Part shown: positions 17,272-38,810 of the stretch, piece after piece
Layout: each line of letters begins with the position of its first letter
How positions within the stretch are numbered: position 1 is the first letter of the stretch
Sequence record: PX092659.1
Length of the DNA stretch: 64,000 bases
DNA from: a phage
Reading direction: 5' to 3' (one strand)
Position numbers and translations under genes: made by a program
The notes under the pieces: model-generated
What the model was told of the DNA's origin: nothing
Seen by the model: the letters and a program-made list of their open reading frames with translations, nothing else
The model's database searches: none

Positions 17272-17654
17272 TAATTTAAAAGCTAGTAAATCGGTAGACG
17301 AAAGCCCAAGCATCTTACCTCGCAGCAGCGGTTGAAATACGAGGTTAAATAAGACCGCTGACCATACTATAAAGTATAATCTATTGGAGATTATGTTTAT
17401 TACACCAGCCTCTTAAGCTGACACGTAAGAACAAAGCGTCGTTGATATTACCGACACAACTTCAAAGATCAACATTTAAGTATGAAAGCTGAAAAGTTTA
17501 AAGAACTCAAACTTCTAAACTTCTAAAGCTAAAAGATGCAAAGTATTCGTTGATGATTCAAACCCTAGATCAAAGGTACATGGCTCGTAAGATATGGCCT
17601 GTGGCGCCTCTAGGCTGTTTATCGGTTTACTAGTTTCACAATTTAAAAATGTAT

Positions 17655-19435: not shown

Positions 19436-19510
19436 GCCGTCCTAGTATAATTGGTATTATCAAGCCGTAACTGGTGGAAGATGTAGGTTCGAATCTTACG
19501 GTCGGTAAGA
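19436..19510 (+). ncRNA. degenerate tRNA-like element
   Basis: Canonical T-arm gtagg-ttcgaat-cttac and 6/7 acceptor pairing, but no acceptable anticodon stem and no CCA. Confidence 0.25.
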
Positions 19511-25520: not shown

Positions 25521-25608
25521 GGGCGTTTATTCCGTAAGTGGTAGCGGAGGGGATTGTAAATCCCTGGTCATTGCGACTCGAGTGGTTCGACTCCATTAAC
25601 GCCCACCA
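25521..25608 (+). tRNA. tRNA-Tyr (anticodon GTA), class II
   Basis: Acceptor gggcgtt/aacgccc, anticodon arm gggga-ttgtaaa-tccct, long variable arm, CCA. Confidence 0.75.
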
Positions 25609-26383: not shown

Positions 26384-26485
26384 AATTCTGTGTAGAGTTA
26401 AGTAAACCGGTAGCCAACCAGCTATCATTGCTGACATCGAATTCAGCCACAGATACCATTTTCATTAATAACTGAGGAAACAAGC

Positions 26486-27382: not shown

Positions 27383-27504
27383 TAAAATTTCAGTGCAGAA
27401 CACGGAGCTAGCAATTCGGAAGTGCTGACTCATGATAAGCTGCCTATGTACTTGCAAAGCGGTCGTGTCCAAGACTCGGACTCTTGCACTGAAAACAATC
27501 AAAC

Positions 27505-27623
27505 ATTCTAGCGTGGTTGATGGGGAAACCAGCTTGGCTAGGGCAGAAGCTCGTTCGATTCGAGTGAAAGAATGGTTCTCGTAAGTCCGCACAAGTGATA
27601 GCAGGTTCGAGTCCTGTCTAGAA
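27505..27623 (+). ncRNA. tRNA-like RNA with a ~105-nt body
   Basis: 7-bp acceptor-like helix attctag/ctagaat closing a region that ends with canonical T-arm gcagg-ttcgagt-cctgt. Confidence 0.3.
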
Positions 27624-27774
27624 TGATACTATAAAGTTTACTTATTGAGTAGGTTCCGATAGATCGGCGGGTCTATTCTGGCAGTTAAGAGAGGTCTCGC
27701 AAACTTCTTTGTCAGCCGTGGGGTTGGTAGCCTCCAGGTGGCCTACACAATAAGTAAATTTATTAAAAATTCAT

Positions 27775-28222: not shown

Positions 28223-28390
28223 ATGAAAGTATTTCGATTAGTAGTAAGTGACAAACGTTTAGGTAAGAATACCTCAAAATCCTTACTTGCTCATTATGGA
28301 AAAGATGAGAAAGAAGTAATGGCGGAGTTTGGGATTAATCACCCTTACTTGAAAGTTCACTCTATTAAAGAAGTATATAATGGTTACTAA
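28223..28390 (+). CDS. small hypothetical protein (55 aa)
   Basis: ATG after GAGGG; between tRNA genes; below ORF-track cutoff. Confidence 0.3.
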   Translation: MKVFRLVVSDKRLGKNTSKSLLAHYGKDEKEVMAEFGINHPYLKVHSIKEVYNGY

Positions 28391-28391
28391 T

Positions 28392-28470
28392 AGATCGCTA
28401 GCTCAATAGGTTTAGTAGCATCCGACTTTTAATCGGAAGGTTCTGGGTTCGAGTCCCAGGCGATCTACCA
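28392..28470 (+). tRNA. tRNA-Lys (anticodon TTT)
   Basis: Acceptor agatcgc/gcgatct, anticodon arm tccga-cttttaa-tcgga, T-arm ctggg-ttcgagt-cccag, CCA. Confidence 0.75.
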
Positions 28471-28488
28471 ATTTCAAGAAAAACGCAG

Positions 28489-28517
28489 TTGCTTAATGCG
28501 TAATTTCTTGTTACAAT
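28489..28517 (+). promoter_or_regulatory. T5-type promoter
   Basis: TTGCTT-17-TACAAT; drives a non-coding transcript. Confidence 0.6.
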
Positions 28518-28745
28518 ATTTATATAAATTGATGAGGAGAAATCCTCGTCATAGTTCACTAAGGTATTAGCTCGACCTAGGACTGGCTGCCAAAAAGCAC
28601 GATCCCTACGATTCGGGAGAAGTTCTAGATTAGTCCACTAGATTCAGCGGCAACTGAATAGTGTATCGGGTTTGCGAGATGACGCGGTTCCTTCCGCTCG
28701 AAGCGAAGGTGCTGTAGTTACGCCGAGCTAATAGCCTTAGTAAAC

Positions 28746-28820
28746 TAAAGAATTTGGGCGAATAGTGTCAGCGGGAGCACACCAGACTTGCAATCTGGTA
28801 GGGAGGGTTCGAGTCCCTCT
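28746..28820 (+). tRNA. tRNA-Ala (anticodon TGC)
   Basis: Acceptor gggcgaa/tttgtcc (G-U pairs), anticodon arm ccaga-cttgcaa-tctgg, T-arm gaggg-ttcgagt-ccctc, CCA. Confidence 0.75.
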
Positions 28821-28825
28821 TTGTC

Positions 28826-28902
28826 CACCAAATACGCGTGATTGATGGAATTGGCATACATACCGTCCTTAGAAGTCGGGTTTTGAGGGTTCGAATCCCT
28901 TG
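28826..28902 (+). tRNA. tRNA with TAG anticodon (Leu by anticodon) but class I architecture
   Basis: Acceptor gcgtgat/gtcacgc, anticodon arm ccgtc-cttagaa-gtcgg (one mismatch), 5-nt variable loop, T-arm gaggg-ttcgaat-ccctt, CCA. Confidence 0.55.
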
Positions 28903-29014
28903 TCACGCACCAAATTTGATGGTCAGAGTAAATTAAACCTACTATCTCGGTTGAGCTGTTTTAATGGGTTCGAATCCCAGCGAGGCGTAACTGCCTGGCG
29001 TGATAGAGGCATCA

Positions 29015-29105
29015 TCTTATTACTGGAAGAGCAAATCGAATTGGCGACGAAAACCGCTTGGAAAGTGGCTGACTGGTAAAACGGCTTGAGAGTTCAAATC
29101 TCTCC
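29015..29105 (+). tRNA. tRNA-Ser (anticodon GGA), class II
   Basis: Acceptor ggaagag/ctcttcc, anticodon loop ttggaaa, ~18-nt variable arm, T-arm gagag-ttcaaat-ctctc, CCA. Confidence 0.65.
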
Positions 29106-29134: not shown

Positions 29135-29482
29135 ATGTTAGCAAAAGATAAAGCTCTAGAGTTTTTAGCATCTTTAGATGAAGATAAGATTATAGATGCT
29201 GCTGAAAAAGCTGGAATGCCCGATTTAACATATCTGGAACGTGCTATTATTGCTCGTGATAAACTACAGAAAGAGTTTGCTATTGCCCAGGAGGAGTTTT
29301 ATACTCGCTATAACGCTCTTACTAAGCAAATTGAAAATGAGTGTTCCCATACTTGGGGAGTAACAGAAAACCTAGGTAATGATCACGATGGCTGGTCTAA
29401 AGTAAAAATTACCTACTATCATCGTAGGACTTGTAAAATTTGTGGAAAAGTAGAAGATTTCACTAGTACGAGTGACTATTAG
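29135..29482 (+). CDS. hypothetical protein (115 aa), C-terminal zinc-ribbon-like
   Basis: CSHTW...CKIC motif; RBS TGAGGTAA. Confidence 0.5.
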   Translation: MLAKDKALEFLASLDEDKIIDAAEKAGMPDLTYLERAIIARDKLQKEFAIAQEEFYTRYNALTKQIENECSHTWGVTENLGNDHDGWSKVKITYYHRRTCKICGKVEDFTSTSDY

Positions 29483-29495
29483 TATAATAAATACT

Positions 29496-29585
29496 AGAAG
29501 ATAGGACGTAGTGGTACGTAACTGGTCTTGAAAACCAGCCCGCTGTAGCGATACGGTGATGGTTCGACTCCATTATCTTCTGCCA
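29496..29585 (+). tRNA. tRNA-Ser (anticodon TGA), class II
   Basis: Acceptor agaagat/atcttct, anticodon arm ctggt-cttgaaa-accag, long variable arm, T-arm gatgg-ttcgact-ccatt, CCA. Confidence 0.8.
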
Positions 29586-29605
29586 ATTAACTATAAGGAA
29601 GTCTT

Positions 29606-29779
29606 ATGAGCAAAACAGTTACTGTAACAATGAAGGACGGTAAAAAATTTAAAGCATGTCTTCATGAAACAGATAAGGGGTGGATGGCTTATTTGCCACA
29701 CCTAGATTCCACCGGGTACGGAATGACCCAACGTGAAGCTATTGTTGATGCTTTAAATGAGGCTTCTGCTGGTTTATAA
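29606..29779 (+). CDS. small HicB/UPF0150-like protein (57 aa)
   Basis: GWMAYLPHLDSTGYGMTQREAIVDALNEA resembles HicB-fold antitoxins; RBS AAGGAAG; no HicA partner seen. Confidence 0.4.
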   Translation: MSKTVTVTMKDGKKFKACLHETDKGWMAYLPHLDSTGYGMTQREAIVDALNEASAGL

Positions 29780-30148
29780 AAAATTCTTGAAGTATGCCGG
29801 AATCGGTAGACGGGGCTGCCTAAAAGGTTTATAGGGAACATCCACTCCCTGCAACATACCTCATAAAGCGGCTGAGATAAATGGTCTATCTCGTGAAGGT
29901 TCAAGTCCTTCTGCTTCTTGATACATCTATGGCTCAAAGTGTAACGGTGCTATTTGATGCTCTTGGTAAGACTTCCCCGACATGCGTTCGGGAGTAAGCT
30001 GCTAAGACTAGAGTAGAAGAGTTTCTGAGAGCCGCCACAATTGAAAATTCGTACTCGTCTTGAGCTGCGTGCAATAGGAGATAACTTGATTAGTATTCTA
30101 GAACATGCTAATTGAGGATGGTTTCGCTAACCCTGCGAGTTTTCAATT

Positions 30149-30225
30149 GTGGCTATATCATAATTGGTTAATGATCCTGATTGTGAATCAGGCCTATGTG
30201 GATTCGAATTCCACTAGCCACCCCA
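30149..30225 (+). tRNA. tRNA-His (anticodon GTG)
   Basis: Acceptor gtggcta/tagccac, D-stem tcat/atga, anticodon arm cctga-ttgtgaa-tcagg, T-arm gtgga-ttcgaat-tccac, discriminator C, CCA; position -1 is T not G. Confidence 0.7.
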
Positions 30226-30250
30226 AATTAACTTAAATAGGAAATAAAAT

Positions 30251-30448
30251 ATGGCTGATTTCTGCAAACAATGCTCCATTGATATGTGGGGCAGAGATAC
30301 TGGTGATCTTTCTGGTTTGATTACAGAAGCTGAGGTCAAAGAAGGTTATGGTGCAGTTGTGATTTGCGAAGGATGCGGAGTTATTCGAGTAGATCATGAA
30401 GGCAAACGTTTAAAAGAACCGGAAAACTTAGGAGAAACAAATGAGTAA
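30251..30448 (+). CDS. small zinc-ribbon protein (65 aa)
   Basis: CKQC...CEGC motif. Confidence 0.45.
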   Translation: MADFCKQCSIDMWGRDTGDLSGLITEAEVKEGYGAVVICEGCGVIRVDHEGKRLKEPENLGETNE

Positions 30449-30677
30449 TGCTTTAATTAGTGAAATTATGTTAACACGTCTTGCAGAACTGCAAACTCTT
30501 CGAGATGAATCTCAGAATAACTTAGCCTATCATAAACAGATGGTAGATACTCTTACTACTCGTATTGAAACTTACGAGCGTGATATTGCAGCATTACAGG
30601 CTCTTTTCTCAGTATCAGCACCAGATACTTTAGAGCAGCCTGTTGTATCTCAGCCAGTAGAAACAGCATCTAGTTAA
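30441..30677 (+). CDS. hypothetical protein (78 aa)
   Basis: Start overlaps upstream stop. Confidence 0.45.
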   Translation: MSNALISEIMLTRLAELQTLRDESQNNLAYHKQMVDTLTTRIETYERDIAALQALFSVSAPDTLEQPVVSQPVETASS

Positions 30678-30686
30678 TAGCATTTT

Positions 30687-30762
30687 TGGAGTGTAGATCA
30701 ATTGGCAGATCGTCGGCCTCTGACTCCGAAGGTTCCTGGTTCGATCCCAGGCACTCCAGCCA
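30687..30762 (+). tRNA. tRNA-Gln (anticodon CTG)
   Basis: Acceptor tggagtg/cactcca, anticodon loop ctctgac, T-arm cctgg-ttcgatc-ccagg, CCA. Confidence 0.7.
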
Positions 30763-30768
30763 AATAAT

Positions 30769-30844
30769 TGGAGAGTAGTGTAACGGTTAGCACAACGGCC
30801 TTTGACTCCGTTAATGGTAGGTTCGATTCCTCCTTCTCCAGCCA
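30769..30844 (+). tRNA. tRNA-Gln (anticodon TTG)
   Basis: Acceptor tggagag/ttctcca, anticodon loop ctttgac, T-loop ttcgatt, CCA; near-duplicate of the previous gene. Confidence 0.7.
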
Positions 30845-30852
30845 AGTAATAA

Positions 30853-30928
30853 GCGGTTAAGCACACGGGTTGTGTCGCAGGCCTTCCAAGCCTCGCTGAG
30901 TAGGGTTCGATTCCCTCTAGCCGCTCCA
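30853..30928 (+). tRNA. tRNA-Gly (anticodon TCC)
   Basis: Acceptor gcggtta/tagccgc, D-stem caca/tgtg, anticodon loop cttccaa, T-loop ttcgatt, CCA; some stem mismatches. Confidence 0.6.
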
Positions 30929-30944
30929 ACTTTAAGGAAACGTT

Positions 30945-31196
30945 ATGCACGTTTTTGAGTTTCGTAATAAAAGTACCGATAAACGAGTTATTGTTATTGG
31001 AGAAACATACCGAGCATACGAACAAACTGACGGCTCTGTCATCCTGAATGATGAGAAAGGAGGTTTTAGCTTTTATCCAGAAGAACCTTATGAAGAGTTT
31101 CGAAAACAATTTAACCTAGACTGGAGAAAGCATTTAAACACTGTTGCTTCATCTGTAGTATTGCCAACTACCAGTACTGTACTATCTAATGGCTGA
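30945..31196 (+). CDS. hypothetical protein (83 aa)
   Basis: ORF with AAGGAAA RBS. Confidence 0.45.
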   Translation: MHVFEFRNKSTDKRVIVIGETYRAYEQTDGSVILNDEKGGFSFYPEEPYEEFRKQFNLDWRKHLNTVASSVVLPTTSTVLSNG

Positions 31197-31353
31197 TAAC
31201 CTAAAAGTCAAGATCGACAAACAAAAGAAACGTGTAGAAGTAGAGATTGGTGAAGAACGTGTAGCCTTCACCTTTGAATTCCTACAACAAATGGCAATGG
31301 TAGTTATGACTGATAAGTCTCCTGTTATTGAAAAAGAAATCCCGTTGAAATAA
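31189..31353 (+). CDS. small hypothetical protein (54 aa)
   Basis: ATG overlapping upstream stop; followed by hairpin cccgtt-gaaata-acggg. Confidence 0.35.
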   Translation: MADNLKVKIDKQKKRVEVEIGEERVAFTFEFLQQMAMVVMTDKSPVIEKEIPLK

Positions 31354-31363
31354 CGGGATCATC

Positions 31364-31438
31364 GCTCCTAAAGCATTGCTGGCGATGCAGTTGCCTTGTA
31401 AGCATCTGAACCGGGTTCGATTCCTGGTGGGAGCACCA
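31364..31438 (+). tRNA. tRNA-Thr (anticodon TGT)
   Basis: Acceptor gctccta/tgggagc, D-stem gcat/atgc, anticodon loop cttgtaa, T-arm ccggg-ttcgatt-cctgg, CCA. Confidence 0.65.
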
Positions 31439-31453
31439 AATTTAAAAATTCAT

Positions 31454-31482
31454 TTGCTTTCTCTCTTATTTATTGTTATAAT
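31454..31482 (+). promoter_or_regulatory. T5-type promoter
   Basis: aaaaattcaTTTGCTT-17-TATAAT. Confidence 0.7.
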
Positions 31483-31512
31483 ATTTATATAAATTAATGA
31501 GAGGGAAACCAA

Positions 31513-31803
31513 ATGAAACGTTATCTTTCTGTTGTGTTCCAAACTGGTGGTCAACGCTATACCTATGAATTTCCTAGCTCTTGGAAGATCAAAGAAGGTG
31601 ATCAAGTAGTAGTGTTAACACCGCGAGATGGATATAAAGTAGTAACGGTTAAACAAGTATTCCCAAAAGATCATGAACCAGCTAAAGGCATTCGCTATAA
31701 GATGATTCATGGTGTGGTTCGTCAAGTACCACGAACTGAGGTAGAAGTAGATAAGACTGGAGAAGCTAAATTCCGTTATACTTCTTACCTAGATAGTGTG
31801 TGA
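31513..31803 (+). CDS. hypothetical protein (96 aa)
   Basis: ORF with GAGGGAAA RBS. Confidence 0.5.
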   Translation: MKRYLSVVFQTGGQRYTYEFPSSWKIKEGDQVVVLTPRDGYKVVTVKQVFPKDHEPAKGIRYKMIHGVVRQVPRTEVEVDKTGEAKFRYTSYLDSV

Positions 31804-31818
31804 TGTAAATATTTTAAT

Positions 31819-31895
31819 GCTTCGGTAGCTTAGCGATCTAAAGCACTCGGCTGATAACCGAGAGATCGGGGGTTTAAATCCCTCCCGGAGTACCA
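31819..31895 (+). tRNA. tRNA-Ile (anticodon GAT)
   Basis: Acceptor gcttcgg/ccggagt, D-stem gctt/aagc, anticodon arm ctcgg-ctgataa-ccgag, T-arm ggggg-tttaaat-ccctc, CCA. Confidence 0.8.
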
Positions 31896-31991
31896 AATTT
31901 AGGAATTAAGACTATGCGTCCAGGAAAGTTTAAAAAAGCTAGTTGGTCTAAAGAGTATAAAGAATACTTACTTAGTCTAATAAAACATAAT

Positions 31992-32067
31992 AGTTAGTTG
32001 GCAGAGTGGTTATGCACCTCCTTCATACGGAGCGACTACAGTGGTTCAAATCCACTACTAACTACCA
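31992..32067 (+). tRNA. tRNA with CAT anticodon (third copy; Met, fMet or Ile-lysidine)
   Basis: Acceptor agttagt/actaact, anticodon loop ttcatac, T-arm agtgg-ttcaaat-ccact, CCA. Confidence 0.65.
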
Positions 32068-32090
32068 AATTCTAACATCGGGGAGATCTA

Positions 32091-32459
32091 ATGAAAGCAT
32101 ATCAAAACCTTAAATCTGGCGTAATTAACCTTGTTCATGAAAATCAGATTATTCAGCTATACTCCGACAACGGTGAACTTAAACAGAAAGTTCTAGTTGA
32201 AGATCTAGAAGGTATCACACCACAATTCGATCCTGAATCCTTCCGTGAAGTTAAGGTGGAAGTCGCCCCTCAAATCGAAGGTGGTCAGCACCTAAATGTC
32301 AATGTATTAAGCCGTGATCAGCTTTTGGATGCACAGAAACATCCTGAAAAATATCCTCAGTTGACCATCCGTGTCTCTGGCTACGCTGTTCGATTTAATG
32401 CACTGACTCGTGAACAACAGAACGACGTTATTAGTCGTACATTTACTCAGGCGATGTAA
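32091..32459 (+). CDS. grcA: autonomous glycyl-radical cofactor (GrcA/YfiD-like)
   Basis: C-terminal [10 protein letters not shown]...[37 protein letters not shown] matches the PFL-type glycyl-radical domain (RVSGY). Confidence 0.8.
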
Positions 32460-32540
32460 TGGGGTTTGGGTACGATTTCTCCGAACTACGTGGGGTAGTC
32501 GAGCAAACTCCATTTATCTCCCAAGTTTTAGGAGAAATGT

Positions 32541-32855
32541 GTGGATCGAGCATTAAGACGCCATCACCGGCAACGTGTGAAGAACAACCGCAGGAAGTAT
32601 TGGACAGTCTTCCCACATGAAGAAAGCCCTAAGCGGTTAGGTATTATCACTACTACTCCTTGCATCTGTTCTTGTTGGATGTGTGGGAACCCTCGCAAAT
32701 ACTATAAGAATAGTAAAGCAGGCATGAAAATTTCGGAGATTAGGAAAATGGAAGCAATGATTATGGGCATCTCAAATGATGAATTTGATGACTTTGTAGG
32801 ATTCGGAGAAGGAATCAGCTCAGGCTGTTTCGAAGATGAGCGCCCCGATCTGTAA
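32541..32855 (+). CDS. hypothetical Cys-rich protein (104 aa)
   Basis: GTG start after AGGAG; CxCxxC and CG motifs. Confidence 0.45.
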   Translation: MDRALRRHHRQRVKNNRRKYWTVFPHEESPKRLGIITTTPCICSCWMCGNPRKYYKNSKAGMKISEIRKMEAMIMGISNDEFDDFVGFGEGISSGCFEDERPDL

Positions 32856-32867
32856 TTAATAATAAAC

Positions 32868-32900
32868 CCCAGCTATTGAATAAGTAGTCTGGGGTTTTTC
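32868..32900 (+). terminator. intrinsic terminator
   Basis: Stem ccccag/ctgggg then TTTTTC. Confidence 0.65.
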
Positions 32901-32976
32901 TGTATAAAGGTACATAATATATGTATAACAAAATTCATCCACATTAGGTTAATTTAAAAGACTTAATGGAGGTAAT

Positions 32977-33324
32977 ATGAGCCGTACTTATCGTAAACAA
33001 TCTGGTGATCAGTGGTGGAAGTCTAAAGAACAATTCTCTCAAGAATATTCTTTCTTCAAAGAAAATGGCTACTGGATTCGTGTTATTTATGCTAAATCCT
33101 GGGATGATATAAAACAGGAAATGAAGGAAGCAACCATTCGTAATGAGAAAAAGGATGGTTATAACTGGAATTCTATTAGTAAGAATGTTAAGTGGCATTC
33201 TAATAAAATGGTTCGTCAAGGGAATCGTCAAGAACTCCACCGCGTGATGAAAGATCCAGAAAATTACGACTATAATCGCGATCATGACATGCGTAAGCGT
33301 GGATTATGGTGGTGCTATGACTAA
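32977..33324 (+). CDS. hypothetical protein (115 aa), Trp/Lys-rich
   Basis: ORF with GGAGG RBS. Confidence 0.5.
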   Translation: MSRTYRKQSGDQWWKSKEQFSQEYSFFKENGYWIRVIYAKSWDDIKQEMKEATIRNEKKDGYNWNSISKNVKWHSNKMVRQGNRQELHRVMKDPENYDYNRDHDMRKRGLWWCYD

Positions 33325-33341
33325 ATTCTGAAATAATTCAT

Positions 33342-33370
33342 TTGCTAAACCTCTCTTTTCTTGCTATAAT
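33342..33370 (+). promoter_or_regulatory. T5-type promoter
   Basis: aaataattcaTTTGCTA-17-TATAAT. Confidence 0.7.
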
Positions 33371-33400
33371 ATATTTATAAATTGATGAGAGAGGTTTGAA

Positions 33401-33682
33401 ATGAAAACTCGTCTAGACTGTGCTGTTCATGTTCTTGAACACGATGTTGTGGGAACCTGTATGTCTTACCATGAAGCAGGTCGTTTAATTAAAGAACGTG
33501 TGGCAGATGTGTGCGGATTGAAGATTGCTGCTGAGGAAGCTGATGATCTTTTAGGTCAAGCACTAGAGAAAACCGAAATGTTTCTCTGCGATTCTTGTTC
33601 TTGGTGGTGTGAAGCTCACGAACGTTCTTTCAACGATTATGATGTATGTCGTGATTGTAGTGGGGAGGATGAAGATGAATAA
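33401..33682 (+). CDS. hypothetical Cys-rich acidic-tail protein (93 aa)
   Basis: CDSCSWWC...CRDCSGEDEDE tail; stop overlaps next ATG. Confidence 0.5.
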   Translation: MKTRLDCAVHVLEHDVVGTCMSYHEAGRLIKERVADVCGLKIAAEEADDLLGQALEKTEMFLCDSCSWWCEAHERSFNDYDVCRDCSGEDEDE

Positions 33683-33974
33683 GTTTATTATTGCACTGAT
33701 GATCTCCGCAGTTAGTTTCGGTTCTTTGGCATCTACCAAAGTTTCTATGAAAAATGGTAATGTTAAAGTCCAACAGAACGGCATTATTACCGAGTATGGT
33801 AAAGTTCGTGATGTTAGGGAACGTAATGGTAAAGTAGAAATATATACTAATAAAAACTTCTCTACTCCAGCCGTTACTATTAGCAAACGCGGTGAAATAA
33901 CCACTCAACGTACTAATAGCTCCAGTTCTTTTACTTGTCGTTATGATTGCGACTTTGAAGGTGAAGATGAATAA
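33675..33974 (+). CDS. secreted hypothetical protein
   Basis: Signal peptide MNKFIIALMISAVSFGSLAS; ends ...CRYDCDFEGEDE; listed ORF 33609.. trimmed to this ATG. Confidence 0.5.
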   Translation: MNKFIIALMISAVSFGSLASTKVSMKNGNVKVQQNGIITEYGKVRDVRERNGKVEIYTNKNFSTPAVTISKRGEITTQRTNSSSSFTCRYDCDFEGEDE

Positions 33975-34386
33975 TTTAGACCCTAGAATTAAATTTGCAA
34001 TTACAGAAATCCAAGATCAAATTGACGAGGACTTCACCGTTTGGTCAAGGTCTGGTAATGGGGAATACTGCCAGCTTTACAGCATGAAAATGGGTATCTC
34101 AATTGAGCTTAATATCAACTCTGAAGGTAGAGTAGAAGCCCAACCCATGTTCAGTGTTCCAGGCTTCTCTGGGTTTGTTGCGGGTATGAAATTATGCCTA
34201 CCAAATAACCATCTTCATCGAGTTATTTGTCAGCTAGAGACTATTAAGCATTTCTTGCCAGAAGATAATATCAATGACTACTACCATGAAGTCGTAGCAG
34301 CTCATATGATGAGAGAATGTAAACGTCGGAGAGAAGAACGTGAAAAGACTAAACATCAACAGCACAGTGCAGATTCCAGCAACTAA
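33967..34386 (+). CDS. hypothetical protein (about 139 aa)
   Basis: ATG within GATGAATAA overlap; listed ORF 33943.. trimmed. Confidence 0.5.
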   Translation: MNNLDPRIKFAITEIQDQIDEDFTVWSRSGNGEYCQLYSMKMGISIELNINSEGRVEAQPMFSVPGFSGFVAGMKLCLPNNHLHRVICQLETIKHFLPEDNINDYYHEVVAAHMMRECKRRREEREKTKHQQHSADSSN

Positions 34387-34636
34387 GGATGTTTTAACAT
34401 TCCTACGTAGTGAGAATACCCAGTTTTGGCATGACTATATTCAGGAAAATAAAAATAATCCAGACATAGTTGCTTTTGCCAAAAAACGTATTGGGGAATA
34501 TAAAGATCCAGAGATTAAAGATGGGATGATTACTATGCAGTTATGGATAGCTATGAAAACCTTTGGACCTACTATGAGTTTAGGATTTACTCCACTGTTT
34601 ACTGATATTCTAATTAATGAAAGGGATCTGAAATGA
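34340..34636 (+). CDS. hypothetical protein (98 aa)
   Basis: ORF overlapping upstream gene end. Confidence 0.4.
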   Translation: MKRLNINSTVQIPATKDVLTFLRSENTQFWHDYIQENKNNPDIVAFAKKRIGEYKDPEIKDGMITMQLWIAMKTFGPTMSLGFTPLFTDILINERDLK

Positions 34637-34917
34637 TTATCTCCCCATTTGCTCTTTGGTTCGTCATTGGATCTATAGTTGCTATTTATAGCCTGGTTGA
34701 TGATCTGTATATTTCTAAGAATAAAGATGTAATATTATACGTTATACATAAAACACGTCCACTAGATCTAGCACCTCTTGATGATACAACACTATTAAGA
34801 TGTGGTATGTCTGTGATATTTATTATGGATATTCTGCTAGGACCAGCATCTGTATTTTTCTATTACCGAAAAACTCGTAATATGAAAAAATTTAAAGCAG
34901 AAATGCAGAATAATTAA
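34633..34917 (+). CDS. small membrane protein (94 aa)
   Basis: Two hydrophobic helices. Confidence 0.45.
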   Translation: MIISPFALWFVIGSIVAIYSLVDDLYISKNKDVILYVIHKTRPLDLAPLDDTTLLRCGMSVIFIMDILLGPASVFFYYRKTRNMKKFKAEMQNN

Positions 34918-35026
34918 AGAACTCGCGTAGGACCGAGTTGCGTCACCTGCAACTGTTACGGATAAGGGAGTCGTGCCCCTTAGTGCGGTAAGTGGTGAGT
35001 TGGTCGCTGACCTTAACTGGAGATTA

Positions 35027-35372
35027 TATGACTATAGTACTAATTCTTGTTACCACTTGGTTTTTAATCGGCGCTGGGTATGCAGTAGCTATACTTAGAC
35101 ACTTAGATGAATATTCTGCTGAATGGTTCATTAAACACCTTCGTATAGACAACAAGGAGCACGAGTTTGAAAACGAAAAACAAAGAAAAGCAGTTGAAGA
35201 AATGACAGGCGAAGAATGCTTATTCTATATGCGTGCAATAGGATTCTTAGGATTATTTAGTGCTGGCCCACTAGGTTTTACCATAGCTCCTTATAAAGAA
35301 ACAGTAGACGATATTAAGTTATGGAGAAATGCAGGGGTACTGCACAAAGCTAGAAAAACTAATATTACATAA
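35027..35372 (+). CDS. membrane protein (about 115 aa)
   Basis: Start MTIVLILVTTWFLIGAGYAVAIL; listed ORF 34992.. trimmed. Confidence 0.5.
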
Positions 35373-35416
35373 GATTGACACTAAGTCAGCTTACTAGCAA
35401 AAGCAAATAATGACAA

Positions 35417-35451
35417 AGCCCAGCCTGCAAAGTTGCGACTGGGCTATTTTT
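35417..35451 (+). terminator. intrinsic terminator
   Basis: Stem agcccag/ctgggct then TTTTTAT. Confidence 0.7.
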
Positions 35452-35466
35452 ATAATAAAATTTTAG

Positions 35467-35495
35467 TTGCTTAGATGCCCAAACTTTTGTATAAT
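35467..35495 (+). promoter_or_regulatory. T5-type promoter
   Basis: TTGCTT-17-TATAAT. Confidence 0.65.
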
Positions 35496-35526
35496 ATGTT
35501 TATAGATTGAGGCAAGAGGATTAAAT

Positions 35527-36225
35527 ATGAGGATTATTTCTAAGTTCGCCGATGTTTATGATTTGCAGAACAGTTTGTTCGACCCAGATCGTGTTTGGGA
35601 ACGTAAAACTGAAGAGTTGCTGGTTAAAGTAACCGATGATGCAGAAAAGAACATTGTGCATACTCGCCAGGTATTTCGTGATGGCTCGCTATCTTTTCGT
35701 GGTGATTTCGAATATTTTGTAAACCCACTATTTGTTGCAGGTGAAGTTTACTGGTTGCACGAGCTGTACTGCTGGCATCCGGCATTTAGCTTCAAAACGT
35801 TCAACCTCGACACTATGTTCGATAAAATGGAAGAGATGGGATTGCATGCCCGCTCTTACTTAATGGATAAGAGTCGTGGAGATGTTCGTGAAACAATGCG
35901 TGATTTGCTCATTGAAGCAAAACCTAAAGCAGAACGTATCTTGTCCGAACTGCGTGTACCGATTGCATATGTGAAAGGTATTAAAAAGAACGATAATGAT
36001 GATGTTCGTAACTTCGTGATTCAGACTAACATTCGTTTCCATCAGTCAGGTATTCCGTGGCAGGAAATTGAAAGTAACTTATATCGTTTACACCAGATGA
36101 TCGAGCAATATATCTGGGGCGTGTTAGGAACCGGTGAGCCTGATATGATTACCACTTCCGATAAGGATCGCTTAACCGCACATGGATTTGATACTGTTAC
36201 TTCTTTTAGGAATATGAAAAGATGA
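35527..36225 (+). CDS. hypothetical protein (232 aa)
   Basis: ORF with GAGG RBS. Confidence 0.55.
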   Translation: MRIISKFADVYDLQNSLFDPDRVWERKTEELLVKVTDDAEKNIVHTRQVFRDGSLSFRGDFEYFVNPLFVAGEVYWLHELYCWHPAFSFKTFNLDTMFDKMEEMGLHARSYLMDKSRGDVRETMRDLLIEAKPKAERILSELRVPIAYVKGIKKNDNDDVRNFVIQTNIRFHQSGIPWQEIESNLYRLHQMIEQYIWGVLGTGEPDMITTSDKDRLTAHGFDTVTSFRNMKR

Positions 36226-36719
36226 TCAGTAAGGAAGAGCTAAGAAGAATGTTCGATTACCAAGAAGATGGTAATCTTATCTGGAAACCCAGGGAAGGGG
36301 ACGAACATTTTAATAAGATATTCGCCGGAACAGTAGCAGGATCTAGACAAAGTACAGGGCATAGAGTAGTTGAACTATATAATGGTTCCATAGCTATAGG
36401 GGCACATAGATTAATCTATGCATGGCATACTGGAGAATGGCCTGAAATAGTTGATCACAAGGATAAAGACCCAACTAATGATAGATTTGAGAATCTAAGA
36501 CCTGCTACAAGATCTGATAATGCTTGTAACCAAAAAGTAAGAAGCGATAACCATTTAGGCGTTAAAAATATCCATAGAAAAACAAATGGGACTTACCAAG
36601 TAAGAATTACCAAACACGGTAAGCAAGTTTCGAAAACACTTAAGAGTTTGGAAGAGGCTATAAAATGGCGGGATACCAAACTCAAAGAACTCCACGGTGA
36701 GTTTGCGAGTACAGGCTAA
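36222..36719 (+). CDS. HNH homing endonuclease
   Basis: HRLIYAWHTGEWPEIVDHKDKDPTNDRFENLRPATRSDN...GTYQVRITKHGKQV (HNH_3 plus AP2-like). Confidence 0.75.
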   Translation: MISKEELRRMFDYQEDGNLIWKPREGDEHFNKIFAGTVAGSRQSTGHRVVELYNGSIAIGAHRLIYAWHTGEWPEIVDHKDKDPTNDRFENLRPATRSDNACNQKVRSDNHLGVKNIHRKTNGTYQVRITKHGKQVSKTLKSLEEAIKWRDTKLKELHGEFASTG

Positions 36720-37162
36720 TGCGGAAATGGTTTGTAGACTTAGTTTGGAATAACAAGATATACATCCTGGGAGCAGGTCTAGCGATAGGCATCGGGTTCG
36801 GTGCTTATCACTTAGTAGATAAAGTGGAGACTTTAGCAGGAGATCTTGCGGTAGCTACTAAAAAGATTTCTTCTCTAGAAACCTCCCTTAATAAGGTGAA
36901 AGCTGAAAGCGAACTTCGTGAGACTAGAATGAATCAGTATTTCACGATGAATAATATTTCTCAAGCAGACTTAGATAAGAAAATTGGTCAGCTTGATAAG
37001 GCACTTAGCCGCCAAGATATTATAGCTGCAAAGCCCGGATTGGTAACATTAATTGCTAAAAAGCAGAGTAAAGAGTTCGAGGAAAGATTAGCGTGTTTAA
37101 CTGGAAACTTGGAATACTGCTCGCAGCCGCAATCACAATCACAGGCTGTGCACAAGAAATAG
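36719..37162 (+). CDS. membrane-anchored coiled-coil protein (147 aa)
   Basis: N-terminal TM helix; overlaps next ORF by ~70 nt, so one boundary is uncertain. Confidence 0.45.
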   Translation: MRKWFVDLVWNNKIYILGAGLAIGIGFGAYHLVDKVETLAGDLAVATKKISSLETSLNKVKAESELRETRMNQYFTMNNISQADLDKKIGQLDKALSRQDIIAAKPGLVTLIAKKQSKEFEERLACLTGNLEYCSQPQSQSQAVHKK

Positions 37163-37446
37163 AGTCAGAACCCACACACGAGCTACCAACAGCTCATGTA
37201 GACTGGCCTAAAGGACTTCAACCTTGTAGCTTTGACTTTAAGTTTGAAAAGAAATTAGCTACAAATGGAGAAGATGGCGTAGTAGTTGTTGTACCATATA
37301 AAGATTGGAATGCAAAAGCAAAATGTGAGGAAGCAGTTTACTCTTACATTTCACGACTGACTGGTATGGTTTGCTTCTATCGTCAAGATTTACAAGAAAA
37401 ACGTTGCTTAGTTTACTATCCACCCATTACAAATAGGAAAGATTAA
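37093..37446 (+). CDS. lipoprotein (117 aa)
   Basis: Signal peptide with lipobox ITGC. Confidence 0.45.
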   Translation: MFNWKLGILLAAAITITGCAQEIESEPTHELPTAHVDWPKGLQPCSFDFKFEKKLATNGEDGVVVVVPYKDWNAKAKCEEAVYSYISRLTGMVCFYRQDLQEKRCLVYYPPITNRKD

Positions 37447-38198
37447 TGTCAGTATTAGTCGGTTTACATGGTGAAGCTGGTTCGGGAAAAGATACCGTTG
37501 CAAAATTAATTATCGATTGGTGTAATGACACGTATCCAACGTGTTTATCCCGTCGTTACCGTTTTGCTAAGCCCGTTTATGAACTTGCATCCGTAATCCT
37601 CGGTGTAACTCCAGAGTTTCTAGGAGAGCGCAGAGGAAAAGAGATTGACCAATGGTTTACGGTCACACAATCTCAATTGGAGCGAGCCAGAGATGTGTGG
37701 TTTAAGTACGGTATCGATAAGTTTGAAGACTTCTCGTACGTTTGGCCTATTTTTGAGGAAAAATATCTTAATCCTCAACAACTTATCTCAGAGAATAAAG
37801 AAGACGGACTTTATAGTTTATTTATTTCTCCGAGAAAAATGTTACAGCTCATAGGGACAGAGCTAGGAAGGCAGCTGGTGCATGAACGCATTTGGCTCAT
37901 AATTCTGGAGCAATCCATCGCTAAAGACGACCCAGATGTCGCCGTAATAACAGATGTTAGATTCCCCAATGAAGGAGAGTTACTCAGAGAAACAAACCAT
38001 TTAGATATGGATTCTTTGATAGTAAATGTAGTACCCGCTGAGCAGAAGTTCACTATTAAATCAGATCATCCATCTGAAAGTGGTATTCCTGCAAAATATA
38101 TTACTCACGAATTAGTTAATAAATTCGATGGTATCAATAACCTTAAACTAGAAGTTTATAACTTCTGTGACTTAGAGCTAGAACCACTAGTTGGATAA
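37446..38198 (+). CDS. dnk: P-loop kinase, dNMP-kinase-like
   Basis: Walker A GEAGSGKDT at N-terminus; 250 aa. Confidence 0.65.
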   Translation: MSVLVGLHGEAGSGKDTVAKLIIDWCNDTYPTCLSRRYRFAKPVYELASVILGVTPEFLGERRGKEIDQWFTVTQSQLERARDVWFKYGIDKFEDFSYVWPIFEEKYLNPQQLISENKEDGLYSLFISPRKMLQLIGTELGRQLVHERIWLIILEQSIAKDDPDVAVITDVRFPNEGELLRETNHLDMDSLIVNVVPAEQKFTIKSDHPSESGIPAKYITHELVNKFDGINNLKLEVYNFCDLELEPLVG

Positions 38199-38210
38199 TC
38201 AAGGATCGCT

Positions 38211-38810
38211 ATGACTAATAAAAAAGAAGAAAAGACTAACCTGTTTCACTCCATTCGCCAATCTAATGAGTATACCTTTTTCTTTGATGAAGAATTAGGC
38301 CCGCCGGATGAATACCGTGATTTATCAATGGTACTTATGCAGGCAAATGAGGACGACGAAATTAATCTGATGATTAATGGCCCTGGTGGTTATGTTGATA
38401 CTGCTGCACAGTTATCTAACTTAATTGCTAATTGCCGTGGAACAGTTATAGGACACCTGATTGGTCCTAGTGCTTCTGCTTACTGCACAATTTTCCTATC
38501 CTGTCATGGATGGGTAGTACATCCACATGCTACGCTAATGGGACACACGTTCTCTGGCGGATTCTGTGAGAAGGGTCAAGAAATCAAGAAAGCCTATGAA
38601 TCTTACAACAAGTTCGTAGAAGATATGATGCTAGATGTCTACTATCCGTTCTTCTCAATAGACGAAATCGACGAGATGGTAAAAGACAACAAAAATATCT
38701 ATCTAGATAGCAAAGAAATCCATAAGCGTATTGAAATCTTGGCAAAATATCGATCTGAGCAATATAATAAAGCCCAGTTACCTCAATCCGAGGAGCATAA
38801 CGAAGAGTAA
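38211..38810 (+). CDS. ClpP-like serine protease
   Basis: MINGPGGYV and GPSASAY motifs resemble ClpP INSPGG / catalytic Ser region. Confidence 0.55.
   Translation: MTNKKEEKTNLFHSIRQSNEYTFFFDEELGPPDEYRDLSMVLMQANEDDEINLMINGPGGYVDTAAQLSNLIANCRGTVIGHLIGPSASAYCTIFLSCHGWVVHPHATLMGHTFSGGFCEKGQEIKKAYESYNKFVEDMMLDVYYPFFSIDEIDEMVKDNKNIYLDSKEIHKRIEILAKYRSEQYNKAQLPQSEEHNEE

What the first reader, a model, noticed from the sequence alone, without database searches (positions are those of the whole stretch)
28519..28745. Promoter-driven ~220-nt non-coding segment with long-range 9-bp helix
A T5-type promoter at 28489-28517 fires into a region with no ORF. It starts with a hairpin (tgatgagga/tcctcgtca, 28520-28541), and attagctcg (28556-28564) pairs perfectly with cgagctaat (28714-28722), enclosing about 150 nt that has further local stems, immediately before tRNA-Ala. 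Candidate structured small RNA.
Basis: seen in the sequence. Interest (0 to 1): 0.5.

Follow-up and report, generated by a model that had tools for sequence, protein, structure and literature searches.

The report
Phage T5 stable RNA "RNA2H"
The flagged segment is a real, highly structured non-coding RNA already annotated in phage T5 as "RNA2H" (function unknown); its intricate double-pseudoknot fold turns out to be conserved across T5-like phages of many hosts, so it probably does something specific that nobody has yet identified.

Summary
The promoter (TTGCTT 28489-94, TACAAT 28512-17) is placed correctly. The hairpin is at 28530-51 and the 9-bp helix at 28566-74/28724-32. That helix is part of a ~22-bp flanking stem.

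The segment is the 172-nt "RNA2H" (window 28565-28736). T5 and BF23 RefSeq records annotate it as a stable RNA of unknown function behind early promoter P13b, so as an entity it is already known. It has no Rfam family, is not tRNA-like, has no similarity to E. coli genomes, and has no credible ORF.

New here:
- Covariance models find homologs BLAST missed, in Pantoea/Erwinia, Klebsiella, Aeromonas and Providencia T5-like phages (52-63% identity in three of them).
- Covariation is extensive: 38 of 56 nested pairs show double changes.
- The fold is a three-way junction holding a core with two pseudoknots. One pseudoknot occurs in six different complementary versions.
- The flanking helix and a bulge at the annotated ends are conserved, even where no promoter is adjacent. 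The end geometry (2-nt 3' stagger) suggests RNase III excision from the tRNA-operon transcript.

Viable T5 deletion mutants and natural variants lack it, so it is an accessory. Its function is inferred only: most likely a trans-acting binder or decoy.

The parts
28489..28517 (+). Core of early promoter P13b (-35 TTGCTT 28489-94, 17-nt spacer, -10 TACAAT 28512-17). The annotated P13b block maps to window 28469-28543.
   Evidence: positions. (T5 and BF23 RefSeq 'promoter P13b'). (similar to other T5-type promoter copies in the window). Not flagged by the generic scan.
28530..28551 (+). Leader hairpin (9-bp stem, GAAA loop). It lies in the primary transcript but outside the mature RNA and is not conserved.
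   Evidence: Absent in the Klebsiella, Aeromonas, Pantoea and Providencia copies. Loop inverted GAAA to UUUC in L038 and L042. Interrupted by a ~116-nt insert in Spc35 and Thor.
28552..28564 (+). 5' strand of flanking helix P0 (pairs with 28735-28747). It lies outside the annotated mature RNA and is the proposed processing stem.
   Evidence: Compensatory changes in AAS21, Klebsiella, Aeromonas and PR1. A perfect 13 bp in Aeromonas and PR1.
28565..28736 (+). Mature RNA2H (172 nt) as annotated in T5 (NC_005859 31808-31979, minus strand) and BF23.
   Evidence: 98.3% identity to T5 rna2H over all 172 nt.
28565..28574 (+). P1 5' strand (10 bp with 28724-28733).
   Evidence: Rebuilt with different sequences in bombadil, AAS21, Klebsiella, Aeromonas and PR1. 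13 of the 22 P0+P1 pairs show double changes.
28575..28578 (+). P2 5' strand (ACCU; pairs with GGGU 28668-28671). With P1 and P5 it forms a three-way junction.
   Evidence: AUAC/GUAU in Klebsiella; GACC/GGUC in PR1. Not evident in Aeromonas.
28580..28584 (+). Pseudoknot PK1 5' strand (GGACU; pairs with AGUCC 28632-28636 in the hp3 loop).
   Evidence: Six complementary versions: GGACU/AGUCC, GAACC/GGUUC, GAGUC/GACUC, GAGCC/GGCUC, GACGG/UCGUC, GAACC/GGUUU. The competing MFE helix is destroyed in AAS21.
28588..28591 (+). Pseudoknot PK2 5' strand (UGCC; pairs with GGCA 28649-28652 in the hp4 loop), followed by the A-rich linker 28592-28596.
   Evidence: one compensatory G-C to A-U change in Klebsiella. 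(U-A to U.G). Otherwise invariant, so support is moderate.
28597..28600 (+). P3 5' strand (GCAC; pairs with GUGU 28661-28664). Tentative closing helix of the hp2/hp3/hp4 junction.
   Evidence: G.U to A-U in Klebsiella. (C-G to U-A in Aeromonas). Unclear in PR1.
28603..28618 (+). hp2, a variable and expandable hairpin.
   Evidence: UCCC/GGGA becomes UUGCA/UGCAA with a 22-25 nt extension in Epseptimavirus; all 4 pairs covary.
28624..28642 (+). hp3 (UCUAG/CUAGA stem). Its 9-nt loop carries the PK1 3' strand 28632-28636.
   Evidence: UCUGA/UCAGA in bobsandoy, CUGG/CCAG in AAS21 and Aeromonas, CGGA/UCCG in Klebsiella.
28643..28658 (+). hp4 (UUCAG/CUGAA stem). Its loop CGGCAA carries the PK2 3' strand 28649-28652.
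   Evidence: AGAGA/UCUCU in AAS21, ACGC/GCGU in Klebsiella, ACUCUG/CAGAGU in Aeromonas.
28674..28723 (+). P5, a long irregular hairpin that stacks on P1 (the 3' strand is continuous from 28721 to 28733). The module is swapped between lineages.
   Evidence: GCG/CGC versus GUG/CAC versus GAG/CUC at the base; 9 of 11 inner pairs covary.
28724..28733 (+). P1 3' strand.
28734..28734 (+). Bulged nucleotide at the P1/P0 boundary, next to both annotated mature ends.
   Evidence: G in the T5-type, AAS21, Klebsiella and PR1 copies; A in Aeromonas; always at the same position.
28735..28747 (+). 3' strand of flanking helix P0. The annotated mature 3' end is C28736.
28756..28830 (+). tRNA-Ala(UGC), the next gene of the same transcription unit, followed by tRNA-Leu 28836-28912.
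   Evidence: The same RNA, tRNA-Ala, tRNA-Leu order is seen in Klebsiella phages.

Best explanation
This is the T5-family stable RNA 'RNA2H'.

Shown or annotated:
- It lies behind early promoter P13b at the head of a tRNA transcription unit.
- It does not encode protein.
- It folds into a conserved architecture: a ~22-bp terminal helix (P0+P1), then a three-way junction (P1/P2/P5), then a compact core. In that core the loops of hairpins hp3 and hp4 pair back to an upstream strand, forming two pseudoknots (PK1 and PK2).

Inferred, step 1 (about 0.6): the 172-nt RNA is cut out of the precursor by a double-strand-specific endonuclease, most likely host RNase III. The cut would be at the bulge between P0 and P1, leaving the annotated 5' end U28565 and a 2-nt 3' overhang ending at C28736. 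This would also free the downstream pre-tRNAs.

Inferred, step 2 (about 0.4): the excised, nuclease-resistant RNA accumulates and acts in trans as a specific binding partner (decoy or scaffold) for a host or phage protein of RNA or tRNA metabolism or defence. Like the phage tRNAs around it, it would be an accessory function that is dispensable in laboratory hosts.
For: Identity:
- 98.3% identical over 172 nt to T5 rna2H, with the same P13b to RNA2H to tRNA-Ala order as T5 and BF23.

Non-coding:
- No ORF inside the RNA.
- Indels of 1, 7, 22 and 25 nt, and whole-hairpin swaps.

Structure:
- z = -5.4 against shuffles.
- CM-detected homologs in Pantoea AAS21 (90.9 bits), Klebsiella (91.2), Aeromonas (51.9) and Providencia (58.3). 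The AAS21, Klebsiella and Aeromonas copies are 62.9%, 52.1% and 52.1% identical to the window copy.
- 97.4% of cells paired; 38 of 56 pairs with double changes; covariation score 0.469 versus at most 0.081 for slid controls.
- Pseudoknot PK1 occurs in six complementary versions.

Processing:
- P0 lies outside the annotated mature ends yet is conserved and covaries in all lineages. That includes AAS21 and PR1, where no promoter is adjacent and an ORF follows.
- The bulge sits at the same position in every copy.
- With the annotated ends, U28565 pairs with A28733 and C28736 pairs with G28563. That is a 2-bp stagger, the RNase III signature (plus established knowledge of RNase III).

Trans-acting role:
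- The tertiary core is conserved far beyond what a processing stem needs.
- Both records annotate it as a stable RNA.
- It is first after a strong early promoter in three lineages.

Accessory status:
- T5 deletions 29191-32442 and 30661-38625 are viable and remove rna2H (PMC11464382).
- FFH1 carries a natural internal deletion.
- No copy was detected in SHSML-45: BLAST found only a promoter copy there, and the CM found nothing in the 3 kb fetched around it.
Against: - The mature ends come only from database annotation whose experimental basis I could not read (searches found no paper).
- RNase III cleavage is inferred from geometry alone.
- No partner is known.
- The RNA can be lost without an obvious cost.
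- P2 is not evident in the Aeromonas copy, and P3 and PK2 have little covariation.
- The alignment behind one search is model-guided and therefore leans toward the structure.
- The position at the head of tRNA operons would also fit a purely cis role.
Confidence: 0.45

Rival explanations
1. It is a purely cis-acting module of the tRNA operon. The flanking helix gives an RNase III entry site that separates the leader from the pre-tRNAs, and the compact fold merely insulates, stabilises or times processing of the downstream tRNAs. On this view the excised RNA is a long-lived by-product with no function of its own.
For: - It always lies within or at the head of the tRNA region. It sits directly between a promoter and tRNAs in the T5-type, Klebsiella and Aeromonas phages.
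- P0 is conserved.
- It is dispensable.
Against: - A processing stem needs only P0 and P1. It does not explain conservation and covariation of P2, hp3, hp4, PK1, PK2 and the invariant junction nucleotides down to about 52% sequence identity.
- In PR1 an ORF follows directly, and in AAS21 an HNH endonuclease gene lies between the RNA and tRNA-Ala.
Confidence: 0.2
2. It is a small catalytic RNA or a ligand-binding aptamer. The double-pseudoknot core would create an active site or binding pocket, for example for self-processing or for sensing a metabolite.
For: - The compact pseudoknotted core, A-rich linker and invariant junction nucleotides resemble the general build of glmS, HDV-like and twister ribozymes and many aptamers. 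That comparison comes from my own knowledge and was not tested.
Against: - No match to any Rfam ribozyme or riboswitch even at E up to 10.
- Two ends in a helix with a 2-nt stagger fit a protein dsRNase better than self-cleavage.
- A stable excised RNA is not what one expects of a cis-regulatory riboswitch, and no terminator or sequestered RBS follows it.
Confidence: 0.1
3. It is a tRNA-like mimic. P1 would act as an acceptor stem, with the 5' end made by RNase P and a discriminator plus CC tail (GCC) completed by the CCA-adding enzyme, so that it engages tRNA-binding enzymes.
For: - The annotated ends give U1-A169 followed by a G-C-C 3' tail.
- P1 stacks on P5 through a continuous 3' strand, as the acceptor and T stems do in tRNA.
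- It is embedded among tRNAs and the 'tRNA-like' RNA1, RNA2 and RNA3.
Against: - Not detected by ARAGORN or by the Rfam tRNA or tmRNA models.
- No T-loop.
- The tail would be GCU in PR1 and ACC in Aeromonas, and the first pair varies.
- Leader-trailer pairing (P0) disfavours RNase P, by established knowledge.
Confidence: 0.07
4. It is a promoter-proximal RNA that modifies the transcribing RNA polymerase in cis (put-like processive antitermination), so that the long, largely untranslated tRNA unit is read through.
For: - It is the first transcribed element after a strong promoter in three lineages.
Against: - There is no adjacent promoter in AAS21 or PR1.
- It is excised and stable.
- It is much larger and more complex than put RNAs (my own knowledge).
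- No intrinsic terminators were detected just downstream on the + strand.
Confidence: 0.05
5. It is a protein-coding or spurious region, as many deposited genomes imply by annotating a 'hypothetical protein' over it.
For: - CDS calls overlap it in many records.
Against: - No conserved ORF.
- Frame-breaking indels and helix-preserving double substitutions.
- The curated T5 and BF23 records call it an RNA.
Confidence: 0.01

Closest known systems
Bacteriophage T5 / BF23 'RNA2H' (gene rna2H, T5s04; NC_005859 31808-31979; NC_042564 4056-4227)
   Same: It is the same gene. It is 98.3% identical to the T5 copy over all 172 nt, sits behind the same promoter P13b, and has the same downstream tRNA-Ala and tRNA-Leu.
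   Different: There are only three substitutions relative to T5 in the RNA, and TACAAT instead of TATAAT at -10. This phage lacks tRNA-Val between tRNA-Lys and the promoter. The database entry gives no structure or function.
Phage T4 'species 1' and 'species 2' stable RNAs (rnaC, rnaD)
   Same: They are small stable RNAs of unknown function embedded in a lytic coliphage tRNA gene cluster, and are annotated the same way. They are made by processing of tRNA-cluster transcripts (my own knowledge).
   Different: There is no detectable relationship. The CM with filters off gives less than 10 bits over the T4 cluster. They are 139 and 119 nt long and lie at the far end of the cluster, after tRNA-Arg, rather than at its head.
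RNase III processing stems (rRNA precursor stems, T7 early-mRNA sites)
   Same: A helix of about 22 bp is formed by sequences flanking the product, and the product ends are staggered by 2 bp within the helix next to a bulge.
   Different: Cleavage by RNase III has not been shown here. The excised product is a 172-nt pseudoknotted RNA rather than an rRNA or mRNA.
GOLLD and ROOL large ornate RNAs of phages and prophages
   Same: They are complex-folded non-coding RNAs of unknown function that often lie next to tRNA genes in phage genomes (my own knowledge, not tested).
   Different: They are several-fold larger. There was no Rfam match to them or to anything else, and the phage groups differ.
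Promoter-proximal cis-acting RNAs such as HK022 put
   Same: It is a structured RNA transcribed first after a strong promoter in three of five lineages.
   Different: It is excised and stable, much larger, and pseudoknotted. Two lineages have no adjacent promoter.

Membership tests
T5/BF23 RNA2H (rna2H) | Sequence homology to the annotated T5 rna2H over its full length | tested here: met
   172 of 172 nt aligned at 98.3% identity. The ends match base for base.
T5/BF23 RNA2H (rna2H) | Genomic context: downstream of early promoter P13b and upstream of tRNA-Ala(UGC) and tRNA-Leu(UAG) | tested here: met
T5/BF23 RNA2H (rna2H) | Accumulates as a discrete stable ~172-nt RNA in infected cells | not testable with these tools
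   Known only from the annotation text 'stable RNA'. No primary paper was found in the library.
tRNA / tRNA-like RNA | Cloverleaf with D and T arms detectable by tRNA models | tested here: not met
   ARAGORN and Rfam tRNA/tmRNA models give nothing inside 28565-28736, even at E up to 10.
tRNA / tRNA-like RNA | Conserved discriminator plus CC(A) 3' tail | tested here: not met
   The tail is GCC in the T5-type, AAS21 and Klebsiella copies, but ACC in Aeromonas and GCU in PR1.
RNase III-processed RNA | About two turns of dsRNA formed by the flanks of the product | tested here: met
   About 22 bp of P0+P1 with one mismatch and one bulge. It is conserved and covaries.
RNase III-processed RNA | Product ends staggered to leave a 2-nt 3' overhang | tested here: met
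   With the annotated ends, the 5' end U28565 pairs with A28733 and the 3' end C28736 pairs with G28563. This depends on the annotated ends being experimental.
RNase III-processed RNA | Cleavage depends on RNase III | not testable with these tools
   Needs an rnc mutant or an in vitro cleavage assay.
Any Rfam family (6S, Y RNA/YrlA, RNase P, known ribozymes, riboswitches, GOLLD/ROOL and others) | Covariance-model match at or near the gathering threshold | tested here: not met
   Only tRNAs pass the gathering threshold in the window. In the permissive search of 28440-28800 nothing falls inside the RNA; the best non-tRNA hits are 14-17 bits at E of 2 or more, over the promoter and leader.
T4 species 1/2 RNAs (rnaC/rnaD) | Sequence and structure homology | tested here: not met
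   Model R2 with filters off over T4 68500-73500 gives a best score of 9.5 bits, and not on rnaC or rnaD.
put-like antitermination RNA | Obligatory promoter-proximal position | tested here: not met
   No T5-type promoter is seen adjacent in AAS21 or PR1.

The most novel reading that the evidence does not exclude
RNA2H would be the founding member of an undescribed class of compact, double-pseudoknotted functional RNAs conserved across Demerecviridae. Candidates are a protein decoy, an aptamer or a small ribozyme. It would act in the tRNA-centred conflict between T5-like phages and their hosts, for example by neutralising an RNA- or tRNA-targeting defence or processing enzyme. That would give a function to one of the tRNA-cluster 'stable RNAs', which current T5, BF23 and T4 records still annotate only as stable RNAs of unknown function.
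Probability: 0.3. Interest if true: 0.75.

Novelty: already known. Interest (0 to 1): 0.45.

Why it matters

What was not available in Rfam, the annotations, or the searchable literature is anything beyond "stable RNA with unknown functions". This analysis adds three things.

1. **A covariation-supported fold.** It has a flanking processing helix, a three-way junction and two pseudoknots.
2. **A wider distribution.** The RNA is conserved in T5-like phages of Escherichia, Salmonella, Klebsiella, Pantoea/Erwinia, Aeromonas and Providencia, at sequence identities too low for BLAST.
3. **A concrete processing hypothesis.** The geometry of the ends points to RNase III excision.

Conservation at that level, in an element that can be lost in the laboratory, is typical of accessory host-interaction or anti-defence functions. 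The same region of T5 has recently yielded tRNA-based counter-defences against PARIS and a retron (PMC11464382, PMC10644984). The model tells experimenters which nucleotides to mutate and which ends to look for. It would also support a new Rfam family and correct the many spurious "hypothetical protein" calls laid over this RNA.

Tried and rejected
**Searches that found nothing**
- Rfam at gathering and at permissive thresholds: only tRNAs, nothing inside the RNA.
- ARAGORN: no tRNA or tmRNA inside the RNA.
- BLAST of the RNA against 5,426 E. coli genomes at E up to 10: no match, so it is not an obvious host mimic or antisense RNA.
- Literature searches for RNA2H and T5 stable RNAs: no paper on it in the library.
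- Metagenome scan with an invariant core motif: only near-identical T5-like copies plus one chance hit.
- IMG/VR and bacterial/archaeal genome scans with a conserved-motif pattern: no new members in IMG/VR, and zero hits in 185,579 species genomes.
- T4 rnaC/rnaD and the Vibrio phage Pylo tRNA cluster: no CM hit even with filters off.

**Structural elements rejected**
- The minimum-free-energy core (helix 13-20/57-64 and CACUA/UAGUG, mature numbering). It is thermodynamically favoured, but bobsandoy and L003 break it and AAS21 destroys it. It is replaced by hp3, P2 and PK1.
- The small hairpin GCU/AGC (hpA). It fails in the Klebsiella copies and is replaced by PK2.

**My own errors and exclusions**
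- My first pair count mis-registered the three outermost P0 pairs by one column.
- The first CM alignment picked up reverse-strand echoes and was redone.
- vB_Kpn_3 (L062) looks like a chimera between the Klebsiella and Epseptimavirus types with a broken P1, so it was left out of the covariation set.

**Idea noted but not pursued**
- UAAGG/CCUUA in P0 resembles a Shine-Dalgarno sequence and the 16S rRNA 3' end. PR1 has UAAAG/CUUUA instead, so plain helix conservation is the simpler reading.
Full report
**1. Checking the observation**

- The promoter hexamers are where stated: TTGCTT 28489-28494 and TACAAT 28512-28517, with a 17-nt spacer.
- The hairpin TGATGAGGA/TCCTCGTCA lies at 28530-28538/28543-28551.
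- ATTAGCTCG lies at 28566-28574 and its perfect complement CGAGCTAAT at 28724-28732, enclosing 149 nt.
- tRNA-Ala starts at 28756.

There is no ORF of 20 aa or more on the + strand within the RNA. The 9-bp helix is only the inner part of a far longer one: 28552-28574 pairs with 28724-28747, about 22 bp with one C/A mismatch and one bulged G. The 231-nt stretch folds at -84.9 kcal/mol, against -59.9 +/- 4.7 for dinucleotide-preserving shuffles (z = -5.4). This is not a chance feature.

**2. What it is**

BLAST against phage genomes finds the segment in 536 records of T5-like phages. The core stretch 28552-28746 is 100% identical to Salmonella phage SP3 and relatives.

Two curated records annotate exactly this stretch. 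BF23 (NC_042564) and T5 itself (NC_005859, 31808-31979, gene rna2H, locus T5s04) call it "RNA2H, stable RNA with unknown functions", preceded by "promoter P13b". The annotated 172-nt RNA maps base for base to window 28565-28736 and is 98.3% identical to the T5 copy.

All seven "stable RNAs" annotated in T5 are present in this window. The promoter resembles the other T5 early promoters scattered through the window. A generic sigma-70 scan misses it because its -35 hexamer is TTGCTT.

The object is a known gene whose function is not known.

**3. What it is not**

- No Rfam family matches, even at E up to 10.
- ARAGORN sees no tRNA or tmRNA in it.
- It has no similarity to any of 5,426 E. coli genomes.
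- It is unrelated to the analogous T4 stable RNAs rnaC and rnaD.
- A conserved-motif scan of 185,579 bacterial and archaeal genomes found nothing.
- The many "hypothetical protein" CDS calls laid over it in deposited genomes are contradicted by frame-breaking indels and helix-preserving substitutions.

**4. Comparative structure**

Within Tequintavirus and Epseptimavirus the core is almost invariant, but whole peripheral hairpins are exchanged while keeping their architecture.
- hp2 changes from UCCC/GGGA to UUGCA/UGCAA with a 22-25-nt extension.
- The base of P5 changes from GCG/CGC to GUG/CAC or GAG/CUC.
- Bombadil carries a G-C to A-U swap in P1.

A covariance model built from 44 unique copies then found full-length homologs that BLAST had missed.
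- Pantoea phage AAS21, which is identical to the copy in Erwinia phage KEY: 90.9 bits.
- Klebsiella Sugarlandvirus phages: 91.2 bits, with about 79 Klebsiella phage records by BLAST.

A broader second model found two more.
- Aeromonas phage AhP_Mru1: 51.9 bits.
- Providencia phage PR1: 58.3 bits.

The AAS21, Klebsiella and Aeromonas copies are 62.9%, 52.1% and 52.1% identical to the window copy.

On a model-guided alignment of 18 sequences from five lineages:
- 97.4% of cells form standard pairs.
- 38 of 56 nested pairs show changes on both sides.
- The covariation score is 0.469, against at most 0.081 when partners are slid by 1-3 columns.
- No shuffle out of 500 reaches the observed values.

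The caveat is that the alignment is fitted to the model.

**5. The core is pseudoknotted**

The thermodynamic optimum pairs 28577-84 with 28621-28, and CACUA with UAGUG. The diverged copies refute this. AAS21 destroys that helix, and bobsandoy and L003 break it.

What is conserved instead, from hand segmentation verified against the sequences:
- P2: ACCU/GGGU, which becomes AUAC/GUAU in Klebsiella and GACC/GGUC in PR1.
- hp3 and hp4, whose stems are completely replaced in other lineages.
- PK1, between 28580-84 and the hp3 loop 28632-36. It occurs as GGACU/AGUCC, GAACC/GGUUC, GAGUC/GACUC, GAGCC/GGCUC, GACGG/UCGUC and GAACC/GGUUU.
- PK2, between UGCC 28588-91 and GGCA 28649-52 in the hp4 loop, with one compensatory change (ACC/GGU in Klebsiella).
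- A tentative P3 (GCAC/GUGU), with one one-sided and one compensatory change.

The result is a three-way junction (P1, P2, P5). The P2 arm carries a compact, doubly pseudoknotted domain with an A-rich linker and a few invariant junction nucleotides.

**6. Biogenesis (inferred)**

The flanking helix P0 (28552-64 with 28735-47) lies outside the annotated mature RNA, yet it is conserved and covaries in every lineage. It is a perfect 13 bp in Aeromonas and PR1.

It is kept even where no T5-type promoter is seen adjacent (AAS21, PR1) and where an ORF rather than a tRNA follows directly. A single bulged nucleotide always sits at the P0/P1 boundary (G in most copies, A in Aeromonas).

With the annotated ends, the 5' end U28565 pairs with A28733 and the 3' end C28736 pairs with G28563. 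That is a 2-bp stagger leaving a 2-nt 3' overhang in the middle of a ~22-bp helix. This is the classic product geometry of RNase III, by established knowledge. I therefore propose RNase III excision from the P13b transcript, which would also release the pre-tRNA-Ala/Leu segment.

The alternative is a tRNA-like end: RNase P cleavage plus a GCC(A) tail. Three things weaken it.
- Leader-trailer pairing disfavours RNase P.
- There is no T arm.
- The tail would be GCU in PR1 and ACC in Aeromonas.

- It is missing in the other genera.
- Its GAAA loop is inverted to UUUC in L038 and L042.
- It is split by a ~116-nt insert in Spc35 and Thor.

**7. Function (inferred)**

The RNA is dispensable.
- T5 mutants with deletions 29191-32442 or 30661-38625 are viable, and both deletions remove rna2H (PMC11464382).
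- Phage FFH1 has lost the inside of the RNA by a deletion between 6-bp direct repeats GCTCGA.
- No copy was detected in SHSML-45. BLAST found only a promoter copy there, and the CM found nothing in the 3 kb fetched around it.

Yet the tertiary fold is preserved down to about 52% identity. A processing stem alone cannot explain that.

My best reading is an abundant, excised, compact RNA that acts in trans by binding a specific macromolecule. It would be an accessory host-interaction function, like the phage tRNAs around it, which are now known to counter tRNA-targeting defences (PMC11464382; PMC10644984).

My rough confidences:
- Identity and structure: about 0.95.
- RNase III step: about 0.6.
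- Trans-acting binder: about 0.4.

The rivals are a purely cis processing or insulation module (0.2), a ribozyme or aptamer (0.1), a tRNA mimic (0.07), a put-like antitermination RNA (0.05), and coding or spurious sequence (0.01).

**8. Novelty and verdict**

The element is already known as an annotated gene, so the finding is a correct rediscovery.

I could not find any of the following in Rfam, in the annotations, or in the searchable literature:
- the conserved double-pseudoknot architecture,
- the distribution across Demerecviridae,
- the processing model.

These make an old unknown directly testable. Interest is moderate at 0.45. It would be considerably higher if a specific partner or activity were found.

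Noticed in passing
window 26386-26458, 27504-27626, 27649-27749, 29786-29930, 29931-30037, 30042-30147: The six other 'stable' or 'tRNA-like' RNAs annotated in T5 are all present in this window at 85-100% identity: RNA3, RNA2, RNAIV, RNA1, RNAI and RNAIII. Like RNA2H, they have no known function and no Rfam family passing threshold.
   Followed up: partly
L007 (Spc35) about 365-470; also L008 (Thor) and L047: In some T5-like phages a ~116-nt insert sits inside the leader hairpin between P13b and RNA2H, and the hairpin stem is retained around it. Its fold is only modestly better than shuffles (z = -1.7).
   Followed up: partly
L038 and L042 (metagenome contigs), leader hairpin: The leader hairpin loop is inverted (GAGGA-GAAA-UCCUC becomes GAGGA-UUUC-UCCUC) while the stem is unchanged. 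This looks like a small hairpin-loop inversion.
   Followed up: no
L009 / L030 (phage FFH1); window 28570-28575 and 28696-28701: FFH1 carries a clean internal deletion of RNA2H whose endpoints coincide with a 6-bp direct repeat GCTCGA. This suggests loss by repeat-mediated recombination.
   Followed up: partly
L062 (Klebsiella phage vB_Kpn_3, partial genome) 116-332: This RNA2H copy looks chimeric, with a Klebsiella-type 5' half and an Epseptimavirus-type 3' half. That breaks P1 and P2. It is either a recombinant or an assembly artefact.
   Followed up: partly
L056 19505-19627 (AAS21_gp103), L057 17011-17145, and many records: Deposited genomes often annotate short 'hypothetical protein' CDSs over this RNA, on either strand. 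These are very probably spurious.
   Followed up: partly
window 28965-28979 and 29088-29104: Two isolated T-arm-like motifs (GGTTCGAATCC-type) lie downstream of tRNA-Leu. They give only weak partial hits to the tmRNA/tRNA clan and are not called tRNAs. They may be remnants of degraded tRNA genes.
   Followed up: partly
L057 about 17237-17322 (Aeromonas phage AhP_Mru1): Right after the RNA2H homolog there is an unannotated sequence that looks tRNA-like by eye. It has a GGTTCGATTCC T arm and ends in CACCACCA.
   Followed up: no
window 19436-19507, 25521-25608, 29496-29585: The two tRNA finders disagree. Rfam calls a weak tRNA at 19436-19507 (30.7 bits) that ARAGORN does not list. ARAGORN's tRNA-Tyr (25521-25608) and tRNA-Ser (29496-29585) are absent from the Rfam gathering list.
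   Followed up: no
window 28223-28390: A 55-aa ORF sits between tRNA-fMet and tRNA-Lys. It corresponds by position to 'ORF trn 2.12' in BF23 and to T5.065 in T5. This phage lacks the BF23 ORF trn 2.12.1 and the tRNA-Val found there in BF23.
   Followed up: no
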